Positions 4,224 to 64,000 of a stretch of DNA of 64,000 nucleotides are shown piece by piece. Numbering within the stretch: the first letter of the stretch is position 1; each line of letters opens with the position of its first letter. The translations under genes were made by a program, and so were the position numbers. The stretch comes from an uncultured archaeon (GTDB taxonomy: Archaea; Nanobdellota; Nanobdellia; Pacearchaeales; GW2011-AR1): NCBI GenBank assembly GCA_902385625.1, contig CABMGE010000001.1, positions 18,765 through 82,764 on the forward strand. The letters are read 5' to 3'. Under the pieces are notes generated by a model that was not told where the DNA came from, did no database searches, and was given only the letters and a program-made list of their open reading frames with translations.

Positions 4224-5570
4224 TTAATTTTCATATCTTCCACAACATAGAACAACACTTCTTCCTCCAAAACCAAAAGAAGATGAAATAAAATTATTTA
4301 TTTTTCTATCTCTTGCTTTGTTTGGAACATAGTCAAGGTCACAAGGTACAAAATATTTTTGCAGTCTTTCATCATGATAGTCTTTTTGAGTATCTGGATT
4401 ATCAAGATTTATAGTGGGAGGAATTACGCTATTCTTCATGGACATAATAGATATTATTAGTTCAAGTCCGCCTGATGCGTTTAATGTATGTCCTAGTCTG
4501 GATTTGTCTGAAGATATTGTAATGTTTTTGGCATACTCTCCAAATGACTGTTTTATTGCAAGTGTCTCCTGCCAATCATTAAATTTTGTTGAGGTTCCAT
4601 GTGCATTTATATGATTAATATCTTCAGGATTTAGTCTCGCCATTTCAAGCGATTGTTTTATTGCAAGAGTTGCATATTTTGCATCAGACCTTGGACTAGT
4701 AGGATGATCTCCATCAAGTTTTGCACCATATCCCTTTATTTCAGCATAAATATTTGCTCCTCTTTTTTTCGCATGTTCAAGTTCTTCGAGAATTACAACT
4801 CCTGCACCATCGCCAATAACAAATCCATTTCTATCACGGTCAAATGGTCTTGATGCATGAGAAGGATCATCATTTCTATATGATGTTGCTCTGAGTTTTG
4901 AAAATCCTCCGTGAGTTAAAAAAGAAAATGCATCTCCTGTTCCTCCACAAATCATTGTATCAGCAAGACCAAGTTGAATATTCATGCAACCATTCATTAT
5001 ATTTGAATTTCCTGAACTACATTCTGTGCAAACCGAAGGCCCATCTCCTGCATGTAACTGATGATTAGCAGCAATGTATGCTGCAGGTGCTCCTGGAAGA
5101 GTTTTGAATGCAATAAAATCATCTATCTCTAAAAGTCCTTCTCTGCAAACTTTAATCACTGCCTTTTCAATATCACTAATTCCTCCAAAACCACTTCCTA
5201 TTGAAACTCCTGTTCTTTCTTTTATTTGTTCAGTAGTAGCAGGATTATAAAAAATCCCAGAATCTTCAATAGCTTCTTTTGCAGCAGCAGATGCAATTCT
5301 TGTGTCATGACACATTCTTCTTTTTGATTCTTTTCCAAATCGCTCATGATTGATTTGTTCTGGATAAAATAAAGAGCCAATATAAGATCCATTCGTTTTA
5401 AGTATTGGAATTTCATTATCTCCATTTATCCTAACCATCACTGGAATTTCACTTGAGACATCTCGAATGACACTTTTCCCTGCCCTTGAATTTTCAAATA
5501 AATCTTTTACATTAAGTCCAAGTGGAGTAAATGCCCCCATTCCTGTAACAACAACTCTTTTGCCTTCCAT
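4224..5570 (-). CDS. beta-ketoacyl synthase, elongating KAS I/II (FabF/FabB-like) type
   Basis: KRVVVTGMG N-terminus; active-site Cys in CTECSSGNS; HGTSTKFND and GHTLNASGGLE His motifs (Cys-His-His triad). Confidence 0.85.
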   Translation of the reverse strand: MEGKRVVVTGMGAFTPLGLNVKDLFENSRAGKSVIRDVSSEIPVMVRINGDNEIPILKTNGSYIGSLFYPEQINHERFGKESKRRMCHDTRIASAAAKEAIEDSGIFYNPATTEQIKERTGVSIGSGFGGISDIEKAVIKVCREGLLEIDDFIAFKTLPGAPAAYIAANHQLHAGDGPSVCTECSSGNSNIMNGCMNIQLGLADTMICGGTGDAFSFLTHGGFSKLRATSYRNDDPSHASRPFDRDRNGFVIGDGAGVVILEELEHAKKRGANIYAEIKGYGAKLDGDHPTSPRSDAKYATLAIKQSLEMARLNPEDINHINAHGTSTKFNDWQETLAIKQSFGEYAKNITISSDKSRLGHTLNASGGLELIISIMSMKNSVIPPTINLDNPDTQKDYHDERLQKYFVPCDLDYVPNKARDRKINNFISSSFGFGGRSVVLCCGRYEN

Positions 5571-6731
5571 TTAATCACTCCGAGTATTTTCTGCATACTC
5601 CCTATCTAGAGATTCAAATACCTCTTTAACTGAAATTATTTTATCGCATCTCCATGCATTTGCACCTGCGAATACATATCCATTTCCAAACTCTCCTTTC
5701 TGAGCTTCAACTAAAGCTCTTGCAATACAATAAGGAGATTCTTCAGGTTTACAGGTTTTAAGGCAATGATAAGGGCATGCAATCGGAATTGTTTCTCCTT
5801 TTTCAACCCTATTTAAAAAATCATTAACAATTGCTCTTCCAGGCATTCCAACAGGACTATTGATAATTCTTAAATCCTCTTTTTTGCAATTGATATAAGC
5901 TTGTTTGAATTTCAAGTCTGCATCACATTCATGAGTTGTTACAAATCTTGTTGCCATCTGAACTCCAGAGGCTCCAAGTTCATGGAATTTTCGAATATCT
6001 CCTCCATAAAATATTCCTCCTGCAGCAATTACCGGAATATTTCCATATTCTTTTACAGCAAGAATTACTTCAGGAATTATTTTTTCAAGTCCATTAGAAA
6101 CATAATCTGGATTATCTAATTGTTCCCTAGAATAACCTAGATGTCCGCCGGCTTTTGGTCCTTCAACAATTACTGCGTCTGGAATATGGCCTAGCTTTGC
6201 CCATGCCTTACACATCATTCCTGCAAGTTTTCCAGAAGAAACAATTGGTGTAAGTTTTATATCTTTTCCATTCAAATAACTAGGAAGATCTCTTGGAATT
6301 CCAGCTCCTGAAACAATCATATCAATATTTTCTTCAACCGCAGTTTGAACAAGTCCTGAATAATCAGAAAGAGCATGCATAATATTTACTCCAACAATTC
6401 CATTAGTAAGACTCCTTGCTTTTCTAATTTGATCCCTTAGTGCATTTTGATTTGCAAAAGAATATAATTCTCCCATAATTATTTTTTTATCATCTTCACT
6501 AGATGCATTTCTTAGCCTATTTTTGTTTCTGTTCATTTCATCCTTGAAATGTCCATTGAGAACTCCAAGTCCAACACTTGCGATCATTGGAATTCCTTCT
6601 TCATTTGAAACTTCAGAAACAATTCCCGATTGAGTAACTCCAACTCCCATTCCACCAAGAATCAATTTACCTTCTAAATATCTTCCACTTCCATTACCTA
6701 TTTTTATTTTAGGTATATTATTGATACCCAT
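5571..6731 (-). CDS. nitronate monooxygenase / FabK-like FMN enoyl reductase family protein with C-terminal Cys cluster
   Basis: GGMGVG, IVEGPKAGGHLG and AAGGI motifs; CPYHCLKTCKPEESPYC near the C-terminus; stop codon directly abuts the KAS start codon. Confidence 0.7.
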   Translation of the reverse strand: MGINNIPKIKIGNGSGRYLEGKLILGGMGVGVTQSGIVSEVSNEEGIPMIASVGLGVLNGHFKDEMNRNKNRLRNASSEDDKKIIMGELYSFANQNALRDQIRKARSLTNGIVGVNIMHALSDYSGLVQTAVEENIDMIVSGAGIPRDLPSYLNGKDIKLTPIVSSGKLAGMMCKAWAKLGHIPDAVIVEGPKAGGHLGYSREQLDNPDYVSNGLEKIIPEVILAVKEYGNIPVIAAGGIFYGGDIRKFHELGASGVQMATRFVTTHECDADLKFKQAYINCKKEDLRIINSPVGMPGRAIVNDFLNRVEKGETIPIACPYHCLKTCKPEESPYCIARALVEAQKGEFGNGYVFAGANAWRCDKIISVKEVFESLDREYAENTRSD

Positions 6732-6801: not shown

Positions 6802-8313
6802 TTAAAGACTTTCCAGATATTTTACATGCTCTATTGATTGCGGACTATGGAGTACTTTTCTTCCTGAAAATTTTGTATATGCAAGAAGGCCTGTTGCAAT
6901 CATTTTATGCCCCCAGGGACGAGAAAAAGCAACTCTTTTAATCCCATTGGTCCAGGAATAAAAATTTTCATACATCTCATATAATATTTTCTGAAGTTCA
7001 AGAGGATTTTTGAAATTTTTAGGTTTGAATAAAACATGATCTCCTTCATAAAGATGGTAATGAGGATCAGATTCAGGATAAATTAGTCTGTCTTCTGATT
7101 TAAATTGTTTTTCAATATCGCTTCCAGGTAATGGGATTAATGCAAAGAACTGTGCACTATCCACATTTCTCGGAGCCCATCCACATAATTCTTTTGCTTT
7201 TGTAGAATTATCATTATCTTCTCCAACAATAAACATTCCATGAGTCCAAAAACCATAATCTCTTATTTTCTTAACAGAATCTATTACTCTTTGTGCGCTG
7301 TATCCCTTATTCATTCCATTTAAAATTTCATCATCAATAGACTCAATTCCAAGACATACTGCTCTTGCTCCAGCTTTCCATAAAAGATCCATAAGTTCAG
7401 AATCATCTGCAAGTTGAATTGTAGACTGAAATACAAATGGTTTATCATTTAGATCATTTTCAACCATGTACTCAAGCAGTCTCTTTGCTCTTTTTCTGTT
7501 AGCAATAAAATTGTCTCCTGTCATAAATATATATTGTCCATGACTTTTTGTTCTTGTAAGTTCATCGCCCATCCATATGTCTGATTTCTCCCTGAAACTC
7601 CTGCCATATGCTTTTGTAACAGTACAAAAATTGCAATCTTTCGGGCAGCCTCTGGAATCTTCAATAGGAAATGTTTTCACCCCTTCAAGTGTTGTCTGAT
7701 CATAATCAGGATGTATAATGCTTAATTTTTCAGGAGAGAGTCTTGCCCTGGGATTTGTATAAATAACTTCATTATTTTTTTCAAAAGCAATTCCATTGAC
7801 ATCTTCTACACTTCCTCTTTCTCCTGCAAGAGTTAGAAGAAGTTCAGGAAAAGTTTCTTCTGCTTCTCCAATAACCACAAAATCAGAATGTTTTGCAAAT
7901 TCCTCTGATCTAAATGAGGGTCCAAATCCTCCAGAGATTGTAATTTTATCCCTATACTGATCAAGTAGTTTTGTTGCCTGCGGATCAGTTCTTGTAATTG
8001 AAGAAACTCCAACTATTGCTGCTTCTTGTAATAATTTTCTATTTTCAAAACTGTTTATATTTCCATGATGTTGGCTAAGATAATCAATATTTGTAAAACC
8101 AGCTTGTTTTGCAGCAGCACCAACATAATGTATTCCTCTTGCAGCAAGTTTATATGAAGTATAAATATCATAACTAGGATCTCCCCCAAGTTTTCCAAAT
8201 TGGGTTGGTCCTGGTTCAACAAGTACTATTAAATCTTTTCTTGAAATTTTTCTTATCATGTTTTTATAACCTATGTTATTGATTTTAAATTTTTTTCTTT
8301 TAAGTGTTATCAC
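6802..8313 (-). CDS. B12-binding-domain radical SAM protein
   Basis: DSRGCPKDCNFCTV (CxxxCxxC) after a Rossmann-like N-domain. The longest ORF starts at GTG 8313; the first ATG is at 8259. Confidence 0.8.
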   Translation of the reverse strand: MITLKRKKFKINNIGYKNMIRKISRKDLIVLVEPGPTQFGKLGGDPSYDIYTSYKLAARGIHYVGAAAKQAGFTNIDYLSQHHGNINSFENRKLLQEAAIVGVSSITRTDPQATKLLDQYRDKITISGGFGPSFRSEEFAKHSDFVVIGEAEETFPELLLTLAGERGSVEDVNGIAFEKNNEVIYTNPRARLSPEKLSIIHPDYDQTTLEGVKTFPIEDSRGCPKDCNFCTVTKAYGRSFREKSDIWMGDELTRTKSHGQYIFMTGDNFIANRKRAKRLLEYMVENDLNDKPFVFQSTIQLADDSELMDLLWKAGARAVCLGIESIDDEILNGMNKGYSAQRVIDSVKKIRDYGFWTHGMFIVGEDNDNSTKAKELCGWAPRNVDSAQFFALIPLPGSDIEKQFKSEDRLIYPESDPHYHLYEGDHVLFKPKNFKNPLELQKILYEMYENFYSWTNGIKRVAFSRPWGHKMIATGLLAYTKFSGRKVLHSPQSIEHVKYLESL

Positions 8314-17298: not shown

Positions 17299-18867
17299 AT
17301 GAAAAAAATAATATTTGTTAAACCTGCGCTTGAAACAGATGCAGTTTGGGATCCAATAAGAACCTGTTCATATTTGGGAATGTGGTATTTGGCATCTCAC
17401 TTAAAATCAAAAGGGCATGATGTAACTTATTTGGATGAAGTGGTTAGAAATAATGGTTTATCTAAAAGAACTCTCTTTAAAAGAGAAATTAAAGGAGACA
17501 ATATTACCGAAACTCATCTTGCACAATCATATGAAGAATTTTCTTCTCAAAAAATGCAGGATTATCATAATTTATCTCCTGAAAATTTTATTGAAAAATA
17601 CTCTGCATTTAGTGAAGAAGGAAAAGTTTCAAGAACCATGGTGAGAACTGGAAATTCTTTGGAAGATACTTTAGTCGAAATTGAAAAAATAAATCCTGAT
17701 GTTGTAGGTATTCCATTAATAGCAACTGCAAATTATTTGCCTGCAACTAGACTCGCAAAAGCAATAAAAACAAAATTCCCAAATATAAAAGTTATATTCG
17801 GAGGACAGCATATTTCTGCAGGTCCTGAGGCATTTATTAAAGAAAATCCTTATGTTGATCAAATCGTAACAGGTGATGCTATTTCTGTAATAGAAGATGT
17901 TATTGAAGGTAGAAGACTCGAAAAAATTGTTCACGGAGGATTTAGGGCAATGGAAGAGTTTCCTATCTTAGACCCTTCAATTATAGAAAATACTGGCTAT
18001 CCTATTGAACCGACTTATACTTATCCCACAAATGGAAGAAAATCTGTAGATTTTATGTTTTCAAAAGGATGTTTTAGAAGGTGTGAATTTTGTGTAGCTG
18101 GAAGTCAGAAAGGAAATCACATAACTGCTACAGATTATGAGAGACTTGAAGAGCAACTTTCTGAATTAAAAAAATATGGAATAGAAGAACTGGTTATACA
18201 AGATGATGCTTTTCTTCGTGACCCCAAACATAGAAAAGAAGATTTGCCAAAAATTTTAGGACTTATGAAAAAATATGGTTTTTACTGGCAAAATAATGGA
18301 GGAATAGAATTTGAAGGCCTGGATGATTTTGTAACTGAACAATTAATTAAATATAATCGCGAAGGAGAGGGAAGAGTAACTTCACTTTATGTTCCATTCA
18401 ATCCTCGTATATGGAATAAAGAACAAAGTGCTGCGAAGTCCATGTCTTCAAGATATCATGAGAATGCAGAAAATTTAAAAAAACTAAGAGAAGAAGGTGG
18501 AATCTATATTTTTACAAGTGCAATTATAGGAACTCCAGAGCAAACAGAAGAGGCATTTAATGAAGAACTTCAGACTGATAAGGAATTAATCCAACATGGT
18601 TATCTGGATTCTGCACTTTGTTTGTCTGCAACAATGCTTCCTGGAACAAGATGGTATGAAAGCAATGGGCATAATATTGTAAATAAGAAAGATTATGCAG
18701 GGTATTCCTTATTTGCTACACATCATAAAACTGAGAATCTTGAATCAAAAGATATTGAGAGGTTAATGGTAACCTGGACTAAATCACTGGATGAAATTCA
18801 AAAAACTTATCATTGGGGAACAGGTTTTCCAAACATTCAAACTAAATTATTTGAAAGGGGGCAATAA
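17299..18867 (+). CDS. B12-binding-domain radical SAM protein
   Basis: FSKGCFRRCEFCVAGSQ (CxxxCxxC) after a Rossmann-like N-domain (VVGIPLIATANY, VIFGGQH). Confidence 0.8.
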   Translation: MKKIIFVKPALETDAVWDPIRTCSYLGMWYLASHLKSKGHDVTYLDEVVRNNGLSKRTLFKREIKGDNITETHLAQSYEEFSSQKMQDYHNLSPENFIEKYSAFSEEGKVSRTMVRTGNSLEDTLVEIEKINPDVVGIPLIATANYLPATRLAKAIKTKFPNIKVIFGGQHISAGPEAFIKENPYVDQIVTGDAISVIEDVIEGRRLEKIVHGGFRAMEEFPILDPSIIENTGYPIEPTYTYPTNGRKSVDFMFSKGCFRRCEFCVAGSQKGNHITATDYERLEEQLSELKKYGIEELVIQDDAFLRDPKHRKEDLPKILGLMKKYGFYWQNNGGIEFEGLDDFVTEQLIKYNREGEGRVTSLYVPFNPRIWNKEQSAAKSMSSRYHENAENLKKLREEGGIYIFTSAIIGTPEQTEEAFNEELQTDKELIQHGYLDSALCLSATMLPGTRWYESNGHNIVNKKDYAGYSLFATHHKTENLESKDIERLMVTWTKSLDEIQKTYHWGTGFPNIQTKLFERGQ

Positions 18868-56164: not shown

Positions 56165-56800
56165 ATGGAGAATATTGGTTGGAACTATGATCATGTAAAC
56201 AAAGAAGGAAAAAATGTTTTCATATTTAGGGATACCTGTCATAAGAATCCTGATATTCAAACAAAAATTCTAGATGAATCTTGCAGACTAATGTTTGGGA
56301 ATTATTTTAAGGTTATGTTTAGTGAAGGTTTTGAAGGTCATAGTCCGATGATATTTTATGATCCATCGAATAATGGAAATAAGTGGAACGCATCAGAGGT
56401 TCTTTCCTATAGGTTTAACAGTTCTGAAAGATTTGTTTTTGGAGTAGAGCAAAAAGAGCTTCTTGAAAAACATCTTGGAATAATCAGACGCAAAGTTATC
56501 TTGGGAAAAAAGCAATTGGAAGGATCAATAACTCTTCCTGAATATTCCGAATTGTTTGGTTTGCAATATCTATTCGACGAAGTTTCAAAAGAAAGAAGTT
56601 ATTGCGCAGTAGAAGCTATCTCAACTTATATGAGATTTCTGAATTTAGATACTGCAGGTTTGGTCTATGGAGATGGCCATTTTGAAGAGATCACTGATAA
56701 ATTAAAAACAAAAGGAATTGGTTATTCTTATTTTTATCCTGGAGCAGTTGAATTGACTCCTGAAGAAGCATTTGAATATTCACTCCAATTCATGAATTAA
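56165..56800 (+). CDS. hypothetical protein
   Basis: 211-aa ORF. Confidence 0.45.
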   Translation: MENIGWNYDHVNKEGKNVFIFRDTCHKNPDIQTKILDESCRLMFGNYFKVMFSEGFEGHSPMIFYDPSNNGNKWNASEVLSYRFNSSERFVFGVEQKELLEKHLGIIRRKVILGKKQLEGSITLPEYSELFGLQYLFDEVSKERSYCAVEAISTYMRFLNLDTAGLVYGDGHFEEITDKLKTKGIGYSYFYPGAVELTPEEAFEYSLQFMN

Positions 56801-56932
56801 TTTCTTAAATAATTTTTTAGAGTTTCAGAATAAAATTAATTTTTAAAAAGTCAATTTTCCGAAGACAAATATTATTTGAAAACTTTAATTCGTAAGAATT
56901 GAATGGTGAAAATCCCCTTCATTAAATAAATC

Positions 56933-57007
56933 TGGGGGTCAGGGGATTTGAACCCCTGACACCCTGCTTAAAAGGCAGGTGCTCTAACCGGACTGAGCTA
57001 GACCCCC
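56933..57007 (-). tRNA. tRNA-Lys (TTT)
   Basis: Hand fold: GGGGGTC/GACCCCC acceptor, GCTC/GAGC D stem, CCTGC-CTTTTAA-GCAGG anticodon arm, AGGGG-TTCAAAT-CCCCT T arm; no encoded CCA. Confidence 0.9.
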
Positions 57008-57257
57008 ATGCTCCATTCGGAGCATACTAATTGAACTGGCTAGAACAACTAGTAATAAAAACCCTAAATAAAATTAGTTTAAAAATGTTATTGAAATGCT
57101 CCATCTGGAATAAACTAGTCTGAATGTTTTGAATTATAAAAAATCACTTATTTTTGTTTACTCACCACTAATTATTGAATGTGAGAAATAAAATAAAAAG
57201 ATAAATTAGTTTTTGAGAATGTTCGTCTGGCTGGAATCATATGATTACAGACAAGGA

Positions 57258-58388
57258 TTAGATAACTCTCTCGAGAGCCATGCCTGATTTCCAAACACAA
57301 CCTCCAGCACATTTCATTCTCTGGGAGCATTTTGGTTTCATCCATTCTTTTATTTCAGGTCTTGCTTTTGAATATTCTTCAGCAGTGCCAAGAGTATTTC
57401 TCATTATCTCATACTGTGCATGCCCGCATAATCTAAGTATCATTTTTGATCTAAAGTTTCGAAGGCTTCCCATTTCGCTTACGAGTAATAATTGCGCCTG
57501 TGGAAAATCCTCTCTAGATATATGTTCTAGATCCTTATGCCATTCATGAAGGAGTTCTTTATCTGATGAAATAATCTCTGGAATAAAAAATCCTTCAGCT
57601 GCACCAAGATCAATTTTTTTTGAAATATGATACTCTATTGTTCTATGTCTTTGTGCCTGTGCAAGTCCTGCAAAACTCATAAGATAGTTAGTAGAATATT
57701 TGTCTCCGAATTTTTCCTCCACAGGTTTTCCAAAAAAACTTAAATGTCTGTCAGTTTGATTTTTTAGATCTTCGATTCTAAATTCTTTTGTCTGTTCTAA
57801 GAACTCTTCCATGTTTTGCGAAAGTCTTTTATTAAACTCATTGCCATTTTGGTTTTCAAATATGAATCTTTCAAATTCATAAATAAAAAAATTAAGTTGA
57901 CGAAGATTAATTGTATGAAGCATTTTTGTTGGAGTAAATACACTTGTCATATATCTTGCATTTTCTTGAGCAAGTTTTTTTATTCCATTACTTCTTTCAT
58001 TATTATCATTAAGTGCAGGATAAACCTTGTCAATAAGTGGAATAAAAATTTCCATCCATTTGTCATACTTTTCTTTTTGTTCAGGCAAAACATCCTTCAT
58101 TTGTGTATATCTTGCAGATTTTTCAGAAGTAACATATTGTTTTTCATTATTAAGAACCATAACAAAAGCTTTTGGAGCAGTTATATAAAAATTAAGCCAA
58201 ATATGTTCATAAGGAGAATGATGGCCGCCCTTTTTTATTCTATTAGTTAAATCAGGATTTGGTGGTTCCTCAATTATTTCATCCCAGTCTTTTTCAGAAT
58301 AACATACTCTTGCTGCATCCTGGGAAAATTTAAGGAATTCTTCTCTTGTTCTGTAGTTGTTTGTCGAACCTTTCAGTTCTATTTTCAT
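57258..58388 (-). CDS. thyX: ThyX-family (flavin-dependent thymidylate synthase-like) protein, unusually long
   Basis: AARVCYSE, GHHSPYEH, and AQAQRHRTIEYHIS fitting RHR-x7-S. An N-terminal pseudo-motif NNEKQYVTSEKSARY keeps S..RY but lacks RHR. Confidence 0.6.
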   Translation of the reverse strand: MKIELKGSTNNYRTREEFLKFSQDAARVCYSEKDWDEIIEEPPNPDLTNRIKKGGHHSPYEHIWLNFYITAPKAFVMVLNNEKQYVTSEKSARYTQMKDVLPEQKEKYDKWMEIFIPLIDKVYPALNDNNERSNGIKKLAQENARYMTSVFTPTKMLHTINLRQLNFFIYEFERFIFENQNGNEFNKRLSQNMEEFLEQTKEFRIEDLKNQTDRHLSFFGKPVEEKFGDKYSTNYLMSFAGLAQAQRHRTIEYHISKKIDLGAAEGFFIPEIISSDKELLHEWHKDLEHISREDFPQAQLLLVSEMGSLRNFRSKMILRLCGHAQYEIMRNTLGTAEEYSKARPEIKEWMKPKCSQRMKCAGGCVWKSGMALERVI

Positions 58389-58495
58389 AAAATAATTCGC
58401 CCTTATTTACTTATAAATAAATATATCTTAGAAAATATAATTACTAAATACATAGATCTTTTAAACTATCATCTTATAATTAAAAAGAGATCAAA

Positions 58496-59044
58496 ATGCC
58501 AAGAGAATTTGAAGTAACTACAATTATTGGAGAACATCAGAAATATGAAGTAATTGAGGTTGAGCCAGTTACTTTTGCAAGTGGAAACCAGGGAAGTTCA
58601 TGCAGAACAATATTTAGTCCAGAAAACAAACTATGGAAGGGTGTTCTTGATAATTTTGCTTTTCATGCTTATCAGGTTTATGAAATGACAGGTCTTGACT
58701 CTGCAATAAAAGCATATCCTCCAAGATTACTAACAGAACATGATGGAGAAAGATTTACTCATGCAGAAATTGAATCAAAAGACAGATTAAGGCTTATTTA
58801 TGATGTATTTCCAAGTTCCTGTGCAATGCCTATTTTAAGAATATCTCCTTCAGAAGGACAGTTATACATTTCAGAGTATGATCCTAAATCTGCAAAACTT
58901 CCTCTTGAAAAAATGAGTTTTAGTCAGGAGTTTGAAGGAAGTTTGGATTTAAGATTTGCGAGTTTGCAGGTATTTTTGCATTTAAGGCCTTTTGAAGAAG
59001 AAAACTGTGATTATTATTCTAGAGACTTAAAAAAGAGTTTTTAA
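58496..59044 (+). CDS. hypothetical protein
   Basis: 182-aa ORF. Confidence 0.45.
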   Translation: MPREFEVTTIIGEHQKYEVIEVEPVTFASGNQGSSCRTIFSPENKLWKGVLDNFAFHAYQVYEMTGLDSAIKAYPPRLLTEHDGERFTHAEIESKDRLRLIYDVFPSSCAMPILRISPSEGQLYISEYDPKSAKLPLEKMSFSQEFEGSLDLRFASLQVFLHLRPFEEENCDYYSRDLKKSF

Positions 59045-59376
59045 TTTTTCAACTGTTCCTGTATTTTAACTTCAATCGCCTCAGCAGAATGAGCTCCAAC
59101 TATTCTACTGGCTTCTTTTCCACTTTTAAAAATAATAAGGCAGGGAATATTTGAAACTCTGTATTTTTCAGCCAAGTCAGAATTATCATCAACATTTAAC
59201 TTTACAAATTTTACCTCTTTCATAGTCTCGGCAAGTTCTTCAATAATAGGGCTTATCATAAGGCAAGGCATGCACCATTCTGCAAAAAAATCTACAACTA
59301 CTAGTTTATGAGAATTATTAATAATTTCGTTAAATTCTTCCCCTGTAAGCTCCATTTCTGATTCTTTTCCTGCCAT
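59041..59376 (-). CDS. trxA: thioredoxin
   Basis: DFFAEWCMPCLMISP (WCxPC), about 110 aa. Confidence 0.85.
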   Translation of the reverse strand: MAGKESEMELTGEEFNEIINNSHKLVVVDFFAEWCMPCLMISPIIEELAETMKEVKFVKLNVDDNSDLAEKYRVSNIPCLIIFKSGKEASRIVGAHSAEAIEVKIQEQLKN

Positions 59377-59549
59377 TTTGGACTATCACCCTCTATTTTT
59401 TCTAGATTTAATATATAATTTGACATTAAAAAGTCTAAAACCAAGGCATTAATAAATGTTTCCCATAATCTGACCTGAATTATTATAAAGTGTAATTATC
59501 TATTTTCCATAATAATAATGATTATTAAACCATAATCTGGAATCGAATA

Positions 59550-60221
59550 ATGGCAAAAAGAAAACATATTGCAAAAAAAGGAAAAAAAGCAAATCATATT
59601 CATTCATATGGCTCAAAGGCAGTTGGGCAAAATGATATGGAAGATGAATTAAGGTATCTTGCAGATTCCAAATTCTTTTATTTTGAAAATATAGAAGACT
59701 ATAAAGATAGACCCTCATGGGATGAAGCATTTATGCTTGCAGCCTATGAAGCAGCAACTCGTTCAAGTTGTCTTGATTTAAAAACAGGTGCAGTTGTTGT
59801 TAAGGATAACCGTGTAAGGGCATCAGGATATAATGGAGCTCCGCCAGGAATAAGAAATTGCCTTGAAGTTGGATGCAGAAAAAAATCCCTTGGAATAGAT
59901 TTTAATGAAAGATGTACAGGTAACTGCAGAGGAGCTCATGCAGAAAGAAATGCAATGGATCAAATAGCAAGAGAAGACCTAAAAGGAACAACATTATACA
60001 CTGTATTTTTTCCATGTTCTGATTGTGCAAAAGAGATTGTTGGAAATGGAATTTCAGAAGTAGTTTACTCAATAATCTATAAAGAACCTGATTCACTTAC
60101 AACAGAATTATTTTCAGAAGCAAAAATAAATCTAAGAGAGTATCAACCAGATATAATTGAACAATTCACAAGACTTATGAGAATATACAATCAAAGACAT
60201 AAAAGAAATCAAAATTATTAA
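59550..60221 (+). CDS. dCMP deaminase (ComEB-type)
   Basis: WDEAFM, HAERNAM, PCSDCAKEI zinc ligands; may start at the internal ATG 59637. Confidence 0.85.
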   Translation: MAKRKHIAKKGKKANHIHSYGSKAVGQNDMEDELRYLADSKFFYFENIEDYKDRPSWDEAFMLAAYEAATRSSCLDLKTGAVVVKDNRVRASGYNGAPPGIRNCLEVGCRKKSLGIDFNERCTGNCRGAHAERNAMDQIAREDLKGTTLYTVFFPCSDCAKEIVGNGISEVVYSIIYKEPDSLTTELFSEAKINLREYQPDIIEQFTRLMRIYNQRHKRNQNY

Positions 60222-60227
60222 ATATTT

Positions 60228-61427
60228 TTATCTCATCCATTCATCAGGATCATCTTGCATAAGATGTTCATGGTGTAATAACCAACTACTTTTATCAGGA
60301 GATTTATGATAAGATTCACTTACAATATTCAAATCATTAACACTCATTCCAAGAATTTTTCCAGCTTCTACTAAAGCTTCTTCAGGTTTGTAAACTCTTG
60401 CAAGTTTTGATGGATCAGGAGTCGCATCCCATGATTTAGGCCAAGAGTCCCATTCAGAAGGATATTCAAATTTATCCAAGTCATAGCCTAATTGTTTAAG
60501 TCTACTTTCAGGTTGGTTGAGTCCATGTCCACGGCTTTCTGCATCCATTTGAGCAGCAACAAGCCTCATTAAACCTTTTTTGTTTTTTCCACCAACATTC
60601 ATAAAAAAATCATTAGTTGAACAGCTTAAGTCTTCATAACCTCTACTTTTCATCTTTTCAATTTGTTTTGGAAGATTGTCACGATCAACATATAGTCCAT
60701 ACAAATGAAGTGAACTTGAATGGTCTATATAAGAACCTAGTTCTACTGGTTGCGAAATAATATTTGAAACTTTTGAAGCCAATAATTTCATCAGTTCAAT
60801 TTGTCCAATATTATTTTCATTCCATGCTTTAAGTAAGTCTCTGCTTCTCCAGTCTGTTTCATAATTCATTACAAAATTTCCCTCTTTGTTTTGGAAAAAT
60901 CTTAGTTGTCCAAGTTGCCAGCAAGGAGGATCATCTTGTTCAAGAATTATATCTTCACCAGCTCTCCAGATTGCAAACTGATAATCTCTTCCAGTAATTC
61001 TTTTTCTTGAGTCCCAGTCATGTTTAATTCTTTCAAAAATAAATGGTAGTTGTTCTACAAATCTTTCATTATATGTATATCCCCATCGGTTTGGATGTTC
61101 TGCATCTTTTTTCCAATGATTATGTATCCCATGTGTAACTTCAAGAATATATTGCATAACTCCTTCAGCACCATCATGAATTCCAGGATAACAGACCTTA
61201 GGTTCAGAATCAGGATTTTTAACAACAACAGTAATATTTGCATCATAACCAAGACTCATGCCTGGTTTTTGTTTTGGAGTTTCGATTCTTGTTCCATTAT
61301 CATAGCATGCAATAATTGTTTTATGGGTTGCTTCTGCAAGATTATCTGCTTCAACAAGAATGGCTCCTTTTTTACCATTACCTCTGAGTTCATTTTGTTC
61401 TCGATTAAAATCATTTATATCACTCAT
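60228..61427 (-). CDS. thymidylate synthase (ThyA)-fold protein, divergent and extended
   Basis: DDPPCWQ (nucleophile Cys context PPC), DWRSRDLLKAWNENN (RS-x-D...N, as in QRSxDxxLGxPFN), SSSLHLY (as in GDxHxY); 399 aa. Confidence 0.55.
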   Translation of the reverse strand: MSDINDFNREQNELRGNGKKGAILVEADNLAEATHKTIIACYDNGTRIETPKQKPGMSLGYDANITVVVKNPDSEPKVCYPGIHDGAEGVMQYILEVTHGIHNHWKKDAEHPNRWGYTYNERFVEQLPFIFERIKHDWDSRKRITGRDYQFAIWRAGEDIILEQDDPPCWQLGQLRFFQNKEGNFVMNYETDWRSRDLLKAWNENNIGQIELMKLLASKVSNIISQPVELGSYIDHSSSLHLYGLYVDRDNLPKQIEKMKSRGYEDLSCSTNDFFMNVGGKNKKGLMRLVAAQMDAESRGHGLNQPESRLKQLGYDLDKFEYPSEWDSWPKSWDATPDPSKLARVYKPEEALVEAGKILGMSVNDLNIVSESYHKSPDKSSWLLHHEHLMQDDPDEWMR

Positions 61428-61545
61428 TTTTCTTCCTCGTTTTTATTAAAGAATTTCATTCATCTTCATTTATAAACATAATGATAAGAAAAAATATATT
61501 TTAGGAACAGATGTTATTTTTAAATTCATTTATAATAATTGAATA

Positions 61546-61797
61546 ATGGATGAATTAAAAATAGGTTACTATCAGCATTCTAAATCCGGAAAATTTTATG
61601 AAGTTATTGGAGTAGCAAGAAATTCTGAGAGTCCAGATGAAGAAATGGTTGTATACAAGGCATTATATAGTGATCCTAAATTTGGAAACCATTGCTTATG
61701 GGTAAGGCCAAAGAAAATGTTTCTTGAAACAATTATACTCAATGAAAAAGAAGTTCCAAGATTCAAATTTATGGGAGATCTTTCAGACAAAAGATAA
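61546..61797 (+). CDS. DUF1653-like small protein
   Basis: YYQHSKSGKFYEVIGVARNSESPDEEMVVYKALY...LWVRP. Confidence 0.55.
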   Translation: MDELKIGYYQHSKSGKFYEVIGVARNSESPDEEMVVYKALYSDPKFGNHCLWVRPKKMFLETIILNEKEVPRFKFMGDLSDKR

Positions 61798-61897
61798 TAA
61801 TCATTTGTATTTATTATATTATATAAAATCTGAATTTACTTTAAATTTTTGTAGCTAAATTATCTTGTTTAGGTTCGAAATACCTGGGCAAATACAA

Positions 61898-62485
61898 TTA
61901 TTTCAATTCATATCCAATTTCAAATAACATTGGAATTATTTTTTCAACAGGCATTCCAAAACAAAGATTATGAAAACTTCCTTCAATTCTTCTGACAAAT
62001 GTTGCGCTATAATATTCAGGAGGAGAATATCCAAGAGCGCAGGTGGTATATTTAAAATCCTGATTTAAAAATTTTTCAATTTCTTCATCCCTTATTTCAC
62101 GTATCCATGCTTTTGTCTCAACAACGTCTGACATTTCCTTTCCATTATCAAGGTTTATCATGTGTATTCCAGTAAAAAACTCATGCATGTTGCCAGATAG
62201 TCTTTTTAGCCTTTGAAAATTCTCTTCTCTTGTTTTTGGTTTTTCGAGTATTTCAGAATCAAAATAAGAAACAGAGTCAAAACCAACAATAATTCCAGAA
62301 GAATGATTTTTTGAAACTGATTCTGCTTTTAATTTTGCAAGATATTTTACCAACTCTGCTGGATAACTGGGTCTGTCCTTTGTATACTCATCAACATCGC
62401 TTCCTTCACATAAATATTCAAGACCCAAACTATCAAATATTTTTTTTCTATGCAGAGACGTTGTTGCAAGTATTAATTTTTTCAT
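61898..62485 (-). CDS. maf: Maf-like nucleoside-triphosphate pyrophosphatase
   Basis: LILATTSLHRKKIFDSLGLEY N-terminus, about 195 aa. Confidence 0.7.
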   Translation of the reverse strand: MKKLILATTSLHRKKIFDSLGLEYLCEGSDVDEYTKDRPSYPAELVKYLAKLKAESVSKNHSSGIIVGFDSVSYFDSEILEKPKTREENFQRLKRLSGNMHEFFTGIHMINLDNGKEMSDVVETKAWIREIRDEEIEKFLNQDFKYTTCALGYSPPEYYSATFVRRIEGSFHNLCFGMPVEKIIPMLFEIGYELK

Positions 62486-63246
62486 TTTTTTCTTAAAATA
62501 AGAGGGCTAAACATTGAGGATAGATCTTTATTATCTCCTGAGTTAAATATTGATGTTGCTTCAATGTCTCGTACTAAATTTGTAAGTTTTTGATCTACTG
62601 AAAATCCTGGCGGCATTCCATTTCCTCCATGTCCATCATAAAAACAAGTCACTCTCTCAAAAAAACTGGAATCAAGATAAATTATTCCATTTGAATCCAA
62701 TTTTTTAAATAGATTTTTAAGTCCAATTTTTAAATCACCATTGTAATCCCAATCAGAGGTATTAAAACTTGATAGATAAACCTTGGAGAATTTTTCTGCC
62801 TTTTGAATTTCCTGAAAAATATCTCCCTGAATTATTTCAAGTGAGTCTAATTTTGAACTGATATTTGAAATTCTATTCTGATGAATATATTCTACGCCTA
62901 ATTTTTGGTTACTTCTATTAAAATAAGCATTTCTTCTCCTTAAATTAAATTCGCCAAATCGAGTATTATTTTCTCCTTTATACATATCATCATATATTCC
63001 ATATTCTATGATATCTAAAAATTCTTTCTTGCCCCAATTTCTTTCAAGAAGCTTTACTCTTTCTTTCATCAGTTTTATTTGTAATGGATTATTGTCTACT
63101 GCAATTACTTTTCCTGCATACTCTAGTATTGCAAATGCCTGGTCGCCTGAACCTCCGATTGCATAGACGATGTCATCAGATTTCAAATCAAGACCTACAA
63201 CAATTGCTGCGAGTGATTCATTTGTTCTTGAATATAATAATTCCAT
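62482..63246 (-). CDS. DUF3419/BtaA-like SAM-binding protein
   Basis: VYAIGGSGDQAFAIL...VIAVDNNPLQIKLMKERVKLL. Confidence 0.45.
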   Translation of the reverse strand: MELLYSRTNESLAAIVVGLDLKSDDIVYAIGGSGDQAFAILEYAGKVIAVDNNPLQIKLMKERVKLLERNWGKKEFLDIIEYGIYDDMYKGENNTRFGEFNLRRRNAYFNRSNQKLGVEYIHQNRISNISSKLDSLEIIQGDIFQEIQKAEKFSKVYLSSFNTSDWDYNGDLKIGLKNLFKKLDSNGIIYLDSSFFERVTCFYDGHGGNGMPPGFSVDQKLTNLVRDIEATSIFNSGDNKDLSSMFSPLILRKK

Positions 63247-63306
63247 CTTTAATTCGGCTCTTTTTTTAGAAACTTATAATGATTTATAAGAATTATTGTA
63301 ATTCAT

Positions 63307-64000
63307 TCACACAAGTACTCTTACAAACTCAGAGTATTTATCCATAATTTTCTTTAGTTCAAATATTTCTCTTGAAGGTTTTGGAGAGAGTTTACCATAT
63401 TGCGGATCCAAAGTTTTTTTCGGATTATATTGCTGAAGAGTATAAAGATTGACTTTTTGATATGCCTCTCTTCTTGTATTATCAGTCTCTCTTCCAAAAC
63501 AAGCCCAGGTACCTATTTTTTCAATATCCTCTGTTGTAAAATCCGGAAGAATAGTTGTCCTGAATTCGTAATTTGGAAATAATTTTACAAGCCTGATACT
63601 TTTATCTATGTTTTCAAGTTTTAAATTTCCATTTACATTAACAATATTATGATATTTTTCTCTTGGTCCTTTAATGTCCATTGCAACATAATCAATAGTT
63701 TCTTCTTTCAAAAGTTCTCTAAGCATTTCAGGATTGCTTCCATTTGTATCAAGTTTAACTGAAAGTCCCATGTCTTTAAGTCTTCTAGCAAATCCAGGAA
63801 GATCACTATAAATTGTTGGTTCTCCGCCTGAAATGCAAATCCCCTGATACCATCCAGTCTTTGCTTTTGAGTTTATATTTTTAAGAAGTGCCTCAAGATT
63901 AATTTCATTGATCTTTCCTTCAACTAATTCTGGATTATGACAAAATCCGCATTTAAAGTTGCATCCAGAGACAAATAGTATCTGTCCCATTTTTCCAGGA
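63307..64000 (-). CDS. radical SAM activating enzyme (anaerobic RNR activase NrdG-like), 5' end outside window
   Basis: Frame open to the window edge (..PGKMGQILFVSGCNFKCGFCHNPEL), ISGGEPT. Confidence 0.75.
   Translation of the reverse strand, partial: PGKMGQILFVSGCNFKCGFCHNPELVEGKINEINLEALLKNINSKAKTGWYQGICISGGEPTIYSDLPGFARRLKDMGLSVKLDTNGSNPEMLRELLKEETIDYVAMDIKGPREKYHNIVNVNGNLKLENIDKSIRLVKLFPNYEFRTTILPDFTTEDIEKIGTWACFGRETDNTRREAYQKVNLYTLQQYNPKKTLDPQYGKLSPKPSREIFELKKIMDKYSEFVRVLV

What the first reader, a model, noticed from the sequence alone, without database searches (positions are those of the whole stretch)
57258..64000. Pyrimidine-deoxynucleotide cluster carrying both a ThyX-like and a ThyA-fold enzyme
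Within 6.7 kb lie a 376-aa ThyX-family protein, thioredoxin, dCMP deaminase, a divergent 399-aa ThyA-fold protein, DUF1653, Maf, a DUF3419-like SAM-binding protein and an NrdG-like radical SAM activase. The ThyA-fold protein has the PPC nucleophile context, R-S-x-D, and Asn at the position equivalent to E. coli N177. Maf is a house-cleaning NTPase known to act on modified and canonical pyrimidine NTPs. ThyA and ThyX are usually alternatives. ThyA-fold paralogues next to dCMP deaminase are also the signature of pyrimidine hydroxymethylases, which make 5-hmdU or 5-hmdC in phages. One of the two may therefore not be a thymidylate synthase but a base-modifying enzyme. The Asn points to a uracil rather than a cytosine substrate. 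The modification hypothesis is inference only.
Basis: partly seen in the sequence, partly recalled or inferred. Interest (0 to 1): 0.6.

Follow-up and report, generated by a model that had tools for sequence, protein, structure and literature searches.

The report
Two thymidylate-synthase-type genes in archaeon
A tiny-genome (DPANN, Pacearchaeota-like) archaeon keeps its DNA-precursor genes together and carries two unrelated enzymes that modify carbon 5 of dUMP: an unusual long ThyX that is almost certainly the real thymidylate synthase, and a very divergent ThyA-fold enzyme that is most likely a second one, although a role as a dUMP hydroxymethylase cannot be excluded.

Summary

**ThyX-like protein (376 aa).** It belongs to a widespread, undescribed long ThyX subfamily found in more than 580 species, from DPANN archaea to gut Clostridia. 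Its two halves keep complementary catalytic motifs, and five cysteines are almost invariant. Elsewhere its neighbours are thymidylate kinase, FolD and SHMT, so it is a genuine thymidylate synthase.

**ThyA-fold protein (399 aa).**
- The AF2 model has pLDDT 92 and matches thymidylate synthase (TS) and hydroxymethylase (HMase) folds.
- It has no Pfam hit, and its nearest curated family is the methanogen-type TS, far below cut-off.
- It sits in a large cellular "short-type ThyA" clade.
- Its conserved neighbours are the enzymes that make dUMP (dCMP deaminase, dCTP deaminase/dUTPase) and ribonucleotide reductase.
- It carries the phage dUMP-hydroxymethylase signature: Asp at the E. coli L143 position plus Asn at N177.
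- That signature is shared by the whole cellular clade, and there are no close viral relatives.
- In related genomes it and ThyX are mostly alternatives, and 3 of 27 species show both.

**Verdict.** This is a deoxypyrimidine supply cluster with two TS-type enzymes. The base-modification idea is unproven, not excluded, and less likely.

The parts
57258..58388 (-). Long (376 aa) flavin-dependent thymidylate synthase (ThyX) of an undescribed subfamily. It looks like a partial tandem duplication with complementary motif loss. The N-half keeps the equivalents of T. maritima H53/E58, E86-S88-R90-Y91 and R147 (all conserved) and of R165 (conserved in archaea, variable in bacteria); the N163 position is variable. 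The N-half reads N81-E82-K83 where RHR should be. The C-half keeps Q244, R247-H248-R249, R319, Q325 and E327 (H323 is variable). Five almost invariant Cys: C29, C321, C354, C360, C364.
   Evidence: alignment to TM0449; AF2 pLDDT 92.1; Foldseek to ThyX and PolB; conservation in 79 species; neighbours elsewhere: thymidylate kinase, FolD, SHMT.
58496..59044 (+). 182-aa ORF of unknown function with no family hit and no homologue in any fetched locus. It sits where the close relative L166 has a dUTPase. No dUTPase remnant is present on the other strand.
59041..59376 (-). Thioredoxin (CxxC: WCMPC). A recurrent neighbour of the ThyA-like gene and of ribonucleotide reductase genes.
   Evidence: (TIGR01068 117.8 above cut-off).
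59550..60221 (+). dCMP deaminase (HAE...PCxxC), which makes dUMP. One of the most conserved neighbours of the ThyA-like gene.
   Evidence: adjacent in 17 of 27 archaeal species loci and 15 of 34 metagenome loci of at least 6 kb.
60228..61427 (-). Divergent ThyA-fold dUMP C5 one-carbon transferase of the cellular short-type ThyA clade, in a Pacearchaeota subfamily with a helical C-terminal extension. Equivalences to E. coli ThyA: C169 = C146 (nucleophile), D166 = L143, R194-S195 = R166-S167, D197 = D169, N205 = N177, H241/Y243 = H207/Y209, Y119 = Y94, W105 = W83, H102 = W80, R147 = R126.
61546..61797 (+). DUF1653 small protein of unknown function. A neighbour only in the closest relatives (L166).
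61898..62485 (-). Maf-family nucleoside-triphosphate pyrophosphatase. A neighbour only in the closest relatives (L166).
   Evidence: (PF02545 125 bits; TIGR00172 114.3, just under 117.15).
62482..63246 (-). 254-aa protein with a weak SAM-methyltransferase / DUF3419-like N-terminus. It overlaps the Maf gene by 4 bases. It is not a conserved neighbour and its role is unknown.
63307..63990 (-). NrdG, the radical-SAM activase of anaerobic (class III) ribonucleotide reductase. In relatives NrdD and NrdR lie next to it; here they would lie beyond the window end.
   Evidence: (TIGR02495 158.4, above 131.15).

Best explanation
This is the chromosomal deoxynucleotide-supply cluster of a Pacearchaeota-like (DPANN) archaeon, located next to the RNA polymerase genes.

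Proposed flow:
1. NrdG, with NrdD just outside the window and thioredoxin as likely reductant, makes dNTPs.
2. dCMP deaminase makes dUMP.
3. Two unrelated enzymes then act on C5 of dUMP.

**The 376-aa ThyX-like protein** is a genuine flavin-dependent thymidylate synthase with an unusual architecture. It is one chain carrying a full ThyX repeat and a truncated one. The first repeat kept the dUMP loop (E-x-S-x-R-Y) and the second kept Q...RHR and the R174 to E182 motif. A dimer of chains would therefore rebuild roughly half of the sites of a normal tetramer. Five conserved cysteines suggest a metal or Fe-S site.

**The 399-aa ThyA-fold protein** belongs to the cellular short-type ThyA clade, whose nearest curated family is the methanogen-type TS. 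It would bind dUMP (Asn205; phosphate-binding arginines; His/Tyr for the 3'-OH), attack C6 with Cys169, and transfer a one-carbon unit to C5. It is most likely a second, analogous thymidylate synthase, and its one-carbon donor is unknown.

Shown: gene identities, fold, motifs, conservation, neighbourhoods and distribution.
Inferred: the product (dTMP), the donor, the oligomeric state and the metal site.
For: **ThyX-like is a TS**
- Thy1 domain and ThyX fold.
- The complementary motifs are invariant or nearly so in 79 species from archaea to Clostridia.
- Neighbours elsewhere are thymidylate kinase in 30 of 49 archaeal and 8 of 31 bacterial loci, FolD in 6-7 loci, SHMT in 9, plus NrdD and NrdR.

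**ThyA-like acts on dUMP**
- High-confidence ThyA fold.
- The catalytic and nucleotide-binding residues listed under parts are invariant or at least 90% conserved across 121 homologues.
- Profile alignment to E. coli TS and MilA fixes the residue equivalences.
- The most conserved neighbours are dCMP deaminase (17 of 27 species) and dCTP-deaminase/dUTPase (17 of 27), followed by NrdG, NrdD, NrdR and thioredoxin.

**ThyA-like is a TS rather than a modifier**
- Its best curated family is TIGR03283, and intermediate relatives score 83-142 bits to it.
- The clade is cellular and spans many phyla. Several members carry inteins.
- It shares the clade motifs EVxxGIH[DN]HW and WxYTYxxR with members that NCBI or JGI name TS.
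- There are no phage relatives and one distant viral relative.
- Of 27 archaeal species with it, only 3 show a long ThyX. None of the roughly 70 archaeal species with a long ThyX had it within the fetched flanks other than those 3. This is the pattern expected for analogous enzymes.
Against: - The active-site signature (Asp at the L143 position plus Asn at N177) is the one that characterised hydroxymethylases have.
- To my knowledge no member of the short-type clade has been shown to make dTMP. MJ0757 showed only partial reactions. This is my recollection and was not found in the paper library.
- The gene sits beside a genuine ThyX in at least five lineages with very small genomes, and with three different long ThyX types (window and L166/L226; L005/L016; L024/L184). 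In a CPR bacterium it lies in a ThyA-like, Tmk, ThyX operon. Plain redundancy is not expected there.
The apparent mutual exclusivity is therefore soft evidence.
- No folate-pathway or DHFR gene lies in the window (one search found no FolD or GlyA).
Confidence: 0.6

Rival explanations
1. The ThyA-fold protein is a dUMP hydroxymethylase. It would add CH2 from a folate-type donor to dUMP and let water, not hydride, quench the exocyclic methylene. This gives 5-hmdUMP, which is phosphorylated and built into DNA or modified further. ThyX makes the ordinary dTMP, and Maf may trim the dTTP or modified-NTP pool.
For: - Asp166 at the L143 position and His102 at the W80 position replace the two hydrophobic shields of canonical TS. 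Asn205 points to uracil.
- The same Asp + Asn signature occurs in the SPO1-like phi18 gp135 and the ViI-like bering gp120. Its meaning is taken from PMC13326640.
- Phage dUMP hydroxymethylases group with the short-type clade (76/100). The window protein is 29% identical to phi18 gp135 over the core, against 20% to E. coli ThyA.
- It recurs next to genuine ThyX genes in very small genomes.
- Maf lies two genes away in the window and in L166.
Against: - The Asp is clade-wide, including in members that NCBI or JGI name TS.
- The Pacearchaeota clade is never sister to the phage hydroxymethylases (0/100), and it shares N-terminal and GIH[DN]HW motifs only with cellular members.
- No dNMP kinase, glycosyl- or aminoacyl-transferase, or dTMP/dTTP-removing set like that of hmU phages is present. 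In phage bering the kinase and NTP pyrophosphatase are adjacent.
- Most genomes with the gene show no ThyX in the scans. In those the gene must supply dTMP unless thymidine is salvaged.
- Maf and DUF1653 are not conserved neighbours.
Confidence: 0.15
2. The ThyA-fold protein is the working thymidylate synthase, and the long ThyX-like protein has another job, for example methylating UMP or another nucleotide, as the ThyX homologue PolB does.
For: - TIGR02170 score (57.3) is below its cut-off of 87.9.
- RHR is lost at the canonical place.
- PolB appears among the fold matches.
- There is an extra cysteine cluster.
Against: - The dUMP and FAD motifs are all retained, split between the two halves, and conserved in 79 species.
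- It is tightly linked to thymidylate kinase, FolD and SHMT.
- It is the only long ThyX type seen in many DPANN and Clostridia genomes, where NCBI names it FAD-dependent TS.
Confidence: 0.05
3. The ThyA-fold protein is a flavin-dependent C5 hydroxylase like phage HY126 AfhB / RB69 gp48, here making 5-hydroxy-dUMP.
For: The best structural matches of the model are 9iqu and 9iqc, the dCMP hydroxylase AfhB (E 6e-11, TM 0.67 on the target).
Against: - The diagnostic D169N change of 5-hydroxylases is absent. D197 is kept in at least 90% of homologues.
- Those enzymes use dCMP and have Asp at the N177 position. Here it is an invariant Asn.
- The organism carries an anaerobic RNR activase, whereas the hydroxylase needs O2.
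- The high TM score mainly reflects the small size of AfhB.
Confidence: 0.03
4. The pair is a transient redundancy. One TS gene was recently acquired and the other is on its way out, with no functional differentiation.
For: - The two enzyme types are distributed patchily and mostly as alternatives.
- ThyX types differ at the same syntenic position: window type against L005 type, 25% identity.
Against: - Both genes are intact and strongly conserved. The ThyA-like protein is 73% identical between the window and L005, against 65% for dCMP deaminase.
- The pairing recurs in at least five lineages and in one CPR operon.
Confidence: 0.1

Closest known systems
Methanogen-type thymidylate synthase (NCBIfam TIGR03283, e.g. 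M. jannaschii MJ0757)
   Same: It is the best-scoring curated family. A continuum of relatives links the window protein to it, scoring 83-142 bits. The two share the DPPC(L/W/F)Q nucleophile context, WRSRD...N, and SLH(L/I)Y.
   Different: The score is 45.2 against a cut-off of 174.55. The window protein is 350-400 aa instead of about 200-220 aa, with a helical C-terminal extension and its own motifs (KAWNENN; R127-equivalent replaced by Asp148). I could not fetch a bona fide methanogen sequence, so residue-level comparison with true members was not done.
Canonical ThyA (Pfam PF00303, E. coli ThyA)
   Same: Same fold. The nucleophilic Cys, R166/S167/D169/N177, H207/Y209, Y94 and W83 equivalents are all kept.
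   Different: There is no Pfam hit and no PDB sequence hit. Identity over the core is 20%. L143 becomes Asp and W80 becomes His. The N-terminal region and the C-terminus differ.
Phage dUMP hydroxymethylases (SPO1/SP-10 type such as phi18 gp135; ViI type such as bering gp120)
   Same: Asp three residues before the catalytic Cys and Asn at the N177 position. Long C-terminal extensions. They group with the short-type clade in the NJ tree (76/100).
   Different: Never sister to the Pacearchaeota clade (0/100). No tblastn hit in 50,697 phage records. The phage enzymes did not align to the cellular clade's N-terminal block and GIH[DN]HW motif. The phage genes sit next to a dNMP kinase and an NTP pyrophosphatase.
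Flavin-dependent thymidylate synthase ThyX (Pfam PF02511, T. maritima TM0449, M. tuberculosis ThyX)
   Same: Thy1 domain and ThyX fold. Every dUMP and FAD motif can be found. Pathway neighbours.
   Different: A single 376-aa chain with two unequal repeats and motifs divided between them. RHR is lost in repeat 1. Five almost invariant cysteines are absent from classical ThyX. The score is below the TIGR02170 cut-off. Two further long types, of 421-435 aa and 523-544 aa, exist in related archaea.
Organisms with both ThyA and ThyX (e.g. Mycobacterium tuberculosis, Corynebacterium; from general knowledge)
   Same: Both enzyme types occur in one genome.
   Different: Here the genome is very small, the ThyA is of the uncharacterised short type, and the two genes lie 1.8 kb apart in one nucleotide-metabolism cluster.

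Membership tests
Canonical thymidylate synthase ThyA (PF00303 / TIGR03284) | Sequence matches the family model above its curated cut-off | tested here: not met
   No Pfam-A hit at E <= 0.01. No TIGR03284 hit. No PDB sequence hit.
Canonical thymidylate synthase ThyA (PF00303 / TIGR03284) | ThyA fold with catalytic Cys, R166-S167-x-D169, N177 and H207-x-Y209 | tested here: met
   AF2 pLDDT 92.1 with Foldseek probability 1.00. Residues are invariant or at least 90% conserved. Equivalences fixed by profile alignment.
Canonical thymidylate synthase ThyA (PF00303 / TIGR03284) | Hydrophobic shield of the exocyclic methylene (L143, W80) | tested here: not met
   D166 and H102 occupy these positions.
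Methanogen-type TS (TIGR03283) | Score above the equivalog cut-off of 174.55 bits | tested here: not met
   45.2 bits over residues 112-243.
Methanogen-type TS (TIGR03283) | Only TS-type gene in the genome (phylogenetic-profile argument) | tested here: not met
   A ThyX lies 1.8 kb away in the window. In other species, 24 of 27 show no long ThyX in pattern-limited scans, but whole genomes could not be read.
dUMP hydroxymethylase (phage SPO1 / SP-10 / ViI type) | Acidic residue at the L143 position together with Asn at the N177 position | tested here: met
   D166 and N205 are invariant. The same holds in phi18 gp135 and bering gp120. The feature is also shared by the whole cellular clade, so it is not specific.
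dUMP hydroxymethylase (phage SPO1 / SP-10 / ViI type) | Clusters with known hydroxymethylases | tested here: not met
   0/100 bootstraps as sister group. No tblastn hit in phages. One viral contig at 28% identity.
dUMP hydroxymethylase (phage SPO1 / SP-10 / ViI type) | Companion genes: kinase for the modified dNMP, and removal of dTTP/dUTP or later transferases | tested here: inconclusive
   Maf is two genes away. No kinase or transferase lies in the cluster, and no Tmk lies in the window. Phage bering has the kinase and NTP pyrophosphatase adjacent.
dUMP hydroxymethylase (phage SPO1 / SP-10 / ViI type) | Product is 5-hmdUMP; hmU is present in DNA | not testable with these tools
   This needs an enzyme assay or nucleoside LC-MS.
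dCMP hydroxymethylase (T4 gp42) / CMP hydroxymethylase (MilA) | Asp at the N177 position (cytosine recognition) | tested here: not met
   Asn205 is invariant. T4 gp42 has Asp there.
5-hydroxy-dCMP synthase (RB69 gp48, HY126 AfhB) | D169N substitution plus N177D | tested here: not met
   D197 and N205 are retained. The criterion comes from PMC13326640.
Flavin-dependent thymidylate synthase ThyX (PF02511 / TIGR02170) | Thy1 domain above the Pfam cut-off; ThyX fold | tested here: met
   76.9 bits against 24.8. Foldseek to the M. tuberculosis, T. maritima and H. pylori ThyX structures. TIGR02170 is below cut-off (57.3 against 87.9).
Flavin-dependent thymidylate synthase ThyX (PF02511 / TIGR02170) | ThyX motif RHR(x)7S and the dUMP/FAD residues | tested here: met
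   The residues are present but split. E89-S91-R93-Y94 is in repeat 1, and Q244, R247-H248-R249, R319, Q325 and E327 are in repeat 2. All are conserved in 79 species. The contiguous RHR(x)7S motif as such is not present in one repeat.
Flavin-dependent thymidylate synthase ThyX (PF02511 / TIGR02170) | Pathway context (dTMP use, CH2-H4folate supply) | tested here: met
   Thymidylate kinase, FolD and SHMT are neighbours in other genomes.

The most novel reading that the evidence does not exclude
The 399-aa ThyA-fold enzyme is a cellular dUMP hydroxymethylase, or another transferase that does not make a methyl group. It would work beside a genuine ThyX, so this DPANN archaeon puts 5-hydroxymethyluracil or a derivative into its own chromosome. 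That trait is so far known from phages and from a few eukaryotes that reach it by other routes.

A related reading comes from the bacterial relatives. The short-type clade may not use folate hydride chemistry at all, and may take its carbon from a corrinoid protein instead.
Probability: 0.15. Interest if true: 0.85.

Novelty: new variant of a known kind. Interest (0 to 1): 0.45.

Why it matters
Thymidylate synthesis is one of the best-studied steps in DNA metabolism, yet both enzymes here belong to uncharacterised branches.

- **The long ThyX.** This split-motif, cysteine-bearing form occurs in hundreds of species, including gut Clostridia. It may have half the usual active sites and a metal or Fe-S centre. 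That matters for ThyX mechanism and for ThyX-directed inhibitors.
- **The short-type ThyA clade.** It includes the methanogen enzyme, whose one-carbon donor is, to my knowledge, still unknown. It has a hydroxymethylase-like active site, and in many bacteria its gene is translationally coupled to a corrinoid protein. Finding its product and donor would settle an old open question.
- **The window organism.** Its two genes side by side make a natural pair for direct comparison.
- **If the minority reading is right.** A cellular archaeon with hmU in its DNA would be a new kind of genome chemistry.

Tried and rejected
1. phmmer of the ThyA-like protein against PDB gave no real hit. Only a profile of the wider clade reached TS and MilA.
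2. hhalign of the family against the single sequences of E. coli ThyA and T4 gp42 was uninformative, with probability about 1%.
3. hhalign of the N-half against the C-half of the ThyX-like family was not significant. The duplication therefore rests on motifs, on the AF2 secondary-structure repeat, and on the two Thy1 stretches in the sister type.
4. No dUTPase pseudogene was found at 58389-59040.
5. I tried to read beyond the window end, and to fetch the window's own contig, through exact-protein look-ups. Three look-ups found nothing on record.
6. Matching contig lengths between the two hit lists as a proxy for co-occurrence proved unreliable. P0113 lies on a different 15,520-bp contig.
7. 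The third homology search, with P0297, was meant to reach named methanogen enzymes. It returned only bacterial relatives. Whether true methanogen TS carry Asp at the L143 position therefore remains untested.
8. A first NJ run timed out, and a second had undefined distances. Only one search is used.
9. The paper library held nothing on MJ0757, on TS in DPANN, or on corrinoid-linked TS.
11. The AfhB-type hydroxylase and dCMP hydroxymethylase readings were rejected on diagnostic residues.
12. An Rfam scan of 55-64 kb found only a tRNA.

Full report
**1. What is there**

The window has about 31% G+C. It carries the archaeal rpoH-rpoB-rpoA, S12, S7, EF-2 and EF-1alpha gene block, so it is a cellular archaeal chromosome. 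The closest homologues of the genes studied come from Pacearchaeota, Woesearchaeota and Nanoarchaeota (DPANN) metagenome-assembled genomes.

Family searches confirm them:
- ThyX-like: Pfam Thy1 76.9 bits, residues 23-168 only.
- Thioredoxin: TIGR01068, above cut-off.
- dCMP deaminase.
- A 399-aa protein with no Pfam hit and only a weak hit to the methanogen-type TS model TIGR03283 (45.2 bits against a cut-off of 174.55).
- DUF1653.
- Maf.
- A weak DUF3419/methyltransferase-like protein.
- NrdG: TIGR02495, above cut-off.

One further ORF of 182 aa (58496-59044, + strand) has no family and no homologue in any fetched locus. A tRNA-Lys gene lies at 56932-57008. The genes alternate in strand, so this is a cluster and not one operon.

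**2. The ThyA-fold protein**

*Fold.* It has no sequence match in the PDB. An AlphaFold2 model built on 121 homologues is confident (pLDDT 92.1). The model matches the ThyA fold with Foldseek probability 1.00. The best matches are the small phage dCMP 5-hydroxylase AfhB, then MilA, then many thymidylate synthases. Viral predicted structures match no better.

*Conservation.* The family is strongly conserved in DPANN archaea, at 55-85% identity.

*Residue equivalences.* A profile of the wider clade aligns to E. coli TS, MilA, T4 gp42 and phage dUMP hydroxymethylases. It fixes these equivalences:

| Window residue | E. coli ThyA residue |
|---|---|
| C169 | C146 |
| D166 | L143 |
| R194-S195 | R166-S167 |
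| D197 | D169 |
| N205 | N177 |
| H241 / Y243 | H207 / Y209 |
| Y119 | Y94 |
| W105 | W83 |
| H102 | W80 |
| R147 | R126 |

The protein therefore has everything needed to bind a (deoxy)uridylate and to activate C5.

**3. Which branch of the ThyA superfamily**

*Cellular relatives.* An exhaustive search found 338 clusters of relatives. The distant ones hit PF00303 weakly, and several carry inteins or an RNase H fusion. They score 83-142 bits to TIGR03283, below its cut-off. Genome scans place 30%-identical relatives in Aminicenantes/Acidobacteriota, Patescibacteria and other bacteria. Further relatives occur in Omnitrophica, Planctomycetes, Armatimonadota and CPR, and NCBI or JGI name several of those thymidylate synthase.

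*Viral relatives.* tblastn against 50,697 phage records found nothing. IMG/VR held one relative at 28% identity.

*Tree.* I built an NJ tree on 254 core columns:
- The Pacearchaeota proteins form a clade (99/100) nested among cellular short-type proteins.
- The phage dUMP hydroxymethylases form their own pair (83/100). I used phi18 gp135, which is 48% identical to the annotated SP-10 enzyme, and the ViI-type bering gp120.
- That pair falls with the short-type clade rather than with E. coli ThyA and T4 gp42 (76/100).
- It is never sister to the Pacearchaeota clade (0/100).

*Clade motifs.* In an HMM alignment the cellular clade, including the window protein, shares an N-terminal block and the motifs EVxxGIH[DN]HW and WxYTYxxR. 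The phage enzymes and E. coli ThyA did not align to these.

**4. The hydroxymethylase signature**

A 2026 paper (PMC13326640) summarises three diagnostic positions:

| Position (E. coli) | Residue and meaning |
|---|---|
| N177 | Asn recognises uracil; Asp recognises cytosine |
| L143 | A bulky hydrophobic residue goes with a methyl product; Asp or Glu goes with a hydroxymethyl product |
| D169 | Asn marks the flavin-dependent 5-hydroxylases |

The window protein has Asn, Asp and Asp at these positions. That is the pattern of a dUMP hydroxymethylase, and phi18 gp135 and bering gp120 show it too.

However, the Asp three residues before the Cys (DPPCLQR) is the consensus of the whole cellular clade. 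It occurs in most distant relatives and in 88 of 101 relatives of P0297. It therefore cannot separate a modifier from a synthase inside this clade.

It does show that the clade's chemistry may differ from textbook ThyA. From my own knowledge, the methanogen enzyme MJ0757 has only been shown to catalyse partial reactions, and its co-substrate is listed as unknown. I could not find this in the library. [quoted passage not shown]

**5. Context of the ThyA-like gene**

In 27 archaeal species loci, the commonest neighbours are:

| Neighbour | Loci (of 27) |
|---|---|
| dCMP deaminase | 17 |
| dCTP-deaminase/dUTPase-type protein | 17 |
| NrdG | 9 |
| NrdD or class II RNR | 15 (two clusters: 8 + 7) |
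| Thioredoxin | 7 |
| NrdR | 5 |

In 34 metagenome loci of at least 6 kb the picture is the same: dCMP deaminase 15, dUTPase/DCD 19, NrdG 11, thioredoxin 12, thymidylate kinase 0. The substrate is therefore dUMP.

Maf, DUF1653 and the methyltransferase-like gene appear only in the window and, for the first two, in the close relative L166. L166 has the order NrdG, Maf, DUF1653, ThyA-like, dCMP deaminase, thioredoxin, dUTPase, ThyX..., RpoH, RpoB. These genes are not a conserved part of the system. In the window the dUTPase is replaced by the unknown 182-aa ORF.

**6. The ThyX-like protein**

*Split motifs.* Alignment to T. maritima ThyX shows that the first half keeps the equivalents of H53, S/T55 and E58 (H56, S58, E61). 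It also keeps the dUMP loop E86-S88-R90-Y91 (E89, S91, R93, Y94), R147 (R145) and N163/R165 (N161, R163). It reads N81-E82-K83 where R78-H79-R80 should be. The second half supplies Q244, R247-H248-R249, R319, H323, Q325 and E327. These are the equivalents of Q75, RHR, R174, H178, Q180 and E182.

*Conservation.* These residues are invariant or nearly so in 105 homologues. In 79 species from DPANN to Bdellovibrionota and gut Clostridia/Bacilli most hold as well, but positions 61, 161 and 323 vary and R163 varies in bacteria. Five cysteines (C29, C321, C354, C360, C364) are likewise almost invariant. Classical ThyX has no such cysteine set.

*Structure.* The AF2 model (pLDDT 92.1) repeats the strand-helix pattern of the core and matches ThyX structures. 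A direct profile comparison of the two halves is not significant. The duplication is therefore inferred from motifs, from the structure, and from the two Thy1 stretches in a sister type.

*Neighbours elsewhere*:
- Thymidylate kinase: 30 of 49 archaeal and 8 of 31 bacterial loci.
- FolD: 6-7 loci.
- SHMT: 9 loci.
- NrdD and NrdR.

This is strong evidence that it is a real thymidylate synthase using methylene-tetrahydrofolate. It is not a pseudogene and not non-catalytic.

**7. Do the two go together?**

*Evidence for pairing.* In related archaea there are at least three long, cysteine-bearing ThyX types: the window type; a 421-435-aa type (L005, L003/L016); and a 523-544-aa type (L024/L223, L184). 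Each is found next to a ThyA-like gene in some lineage, and L005 has it at the same syntenic position as the window. L226 and L166 repeat the window arrangement. A CPR bacterium (L080) has the operon ThyA-like, thymidylate kinase, classical ThyX, DeoC. The pairing is therefore recurrent.

*Evidence against obligatory pairing.* Only 3 of 27 archaeal species with the ThyA-like gene show any long ThyX in the scans. None of about 70 archaeal species with a long ThyX, other than those 3, showed the ThyA-like gene in the fetched flanks. Only 5 of 34 metagenome loci have a ThyX nearby.

The genomes are MAGs, and I could not read whole genomes. With that caveat, the pattern (mostly one or the other, sometimes both) is what analogous thymidylate synthases show elsewhere.

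**8. Conclusion**

The most likely reading (about 0.6) is an ordinary deoxypyrimidine supply cluster. It contains two analogous dUMP-to-dTMP enzymes, both from uncharacterised branches. The ThyX part is close to certain. The product and one-carbon donor of the ThyA-like enzyme are inferred.

The dUMP hydroxymethylase reading keeps about 0.15.
- For it: the active-site signature, the affinity of phage dUMP hydroxymethylases for this clade, the recurrence beside real ThyX genes in very small genomes, and the nearby Maf.
- Against it: the clade-wide nature of the signature, the absence of companion genes and of viral relatives, and the mostly alternative distribution.

Readings as a dCMP hydroxymethylase or a flavin-dependent 5-hydroxylase fail on diagnostic residues. 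Nothing here is a member of a curated equivalog family except thioredoxin and NrdG.

**9. Side observation that may matter more than the finding**

In the bacterial relatives of the ThyA-like protein, 32 of 53 loci have a roughly 212-225-aa corrinoid-binding protein (PF02607 + PF02310). In 28 of them it lies immediately downstream on the same strand. In L054 the two genes overlap by 4 bases. This suggests that part of the short-type clade works with a corrinoid partner, possibly as a methyl donor. I found no literature on this. The Pacearchaeota genes lack this partner.

**10. Limits**

- Model coordinates could not be inspected, so cysteine clustering and active-site geometry are untested.
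- No bona fide methanogen TS sequence could be fetched.

Noticed in passing
Loci L032-L084, e.g. L054:9989-10951 (ThyA-like) and L054:10948-11625; L038:10971-11639: In bacterial relatives of the ThyA-like protein (about 30% identity; Aminicenantes/Acidobacteriota, Holophagae, Brocadiaceae and other MAGs), 32 of 53 loci carry a corrinoid-binding protein (B12-binding_2 + B12-binding, DxHxxG). In 28 of them it lies immediately downstream on the same strand, and in L054 the two genes overlap by 4 bases. This may be a short-type ThyA plus corrinoid pair, that is, a cobalamin-linked route to dTMP.
   Followed up: partly
window 57258-58388; loci L085-L164: The long ThyX subfamily has five almost invariant cysteines (C29, C321, C354, C360, C364) in 79 species from DPANN archaea to gut Clostridia. 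Classical ThyX has none of these. They may form a metal or Fe-S site. Two further long types keep a similar cysteine pattern: 421-435 aa (L005:14717-16024) and 523-544 aa (L223:10983-12554).
   Followed up: partly
L080:9894-12882: A CPR bacterium (Candidatus Gribaldobacteria) has the overlapping gene string short-type ThyA-like, thymidylate kinase, classical ThyX, DeoC, between ribosomal protein L11 and GatB. Both TS types therefore sit in one operon of a very small genome.
   Followed up: partly
window 58496-59044 (+): A 182-aa ORF without any family or homologue sits where the close relative L166 has a dUTPase (L166:5483-5956). No dUTPase, dCTP deaminase, thymidylate kinase, FolD or SHMT was found anywhere in the 64-kb window.
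   Followed up: partly
P0284, P0288, P0304, P0357, P0292: Distant relatives of the ThyA-like protein carry inteins with LAGLIDADG domains, inserted near the catalytic region. One relative is fused to an RNase H-like domain.
   Followed up: no
L012:8312-10093: A thioredoxin next to a ThyA-like gene appears to carry a large intein-like insertion starting right after the first active-site cysteine (FFAEWC|LAPGT...).
   Followed up: no
window 56932-57008 (-): A tRNA-Lys (UUU) gene lies between the unknown 211-aa ORF (56165-56800) and the ThyX-like gene.
   Followed up: yes
window 4224-6731 (-), 6802-8313 (-), 17299-18867 (+): A beta-ketoacyl synthase (FabF-like) lies next to a nitronate-monooxygenase/FabK-like protein. 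These are bacterial-type fatty-acid genes in an archaeon. Two B12-binding radical-SAM proteins are also present, which implies that the organism uses cobalamin.
   Followed up: no
L178:7127-11375: In one relative the ThyA-like gene follows a class II (B12-dependent) ribonucleotide reductase instead of NrdD/NrdG. The link is therefore to ribonucleotide reduction in general and not to the anaerobic enzyme.
   Followed up: no
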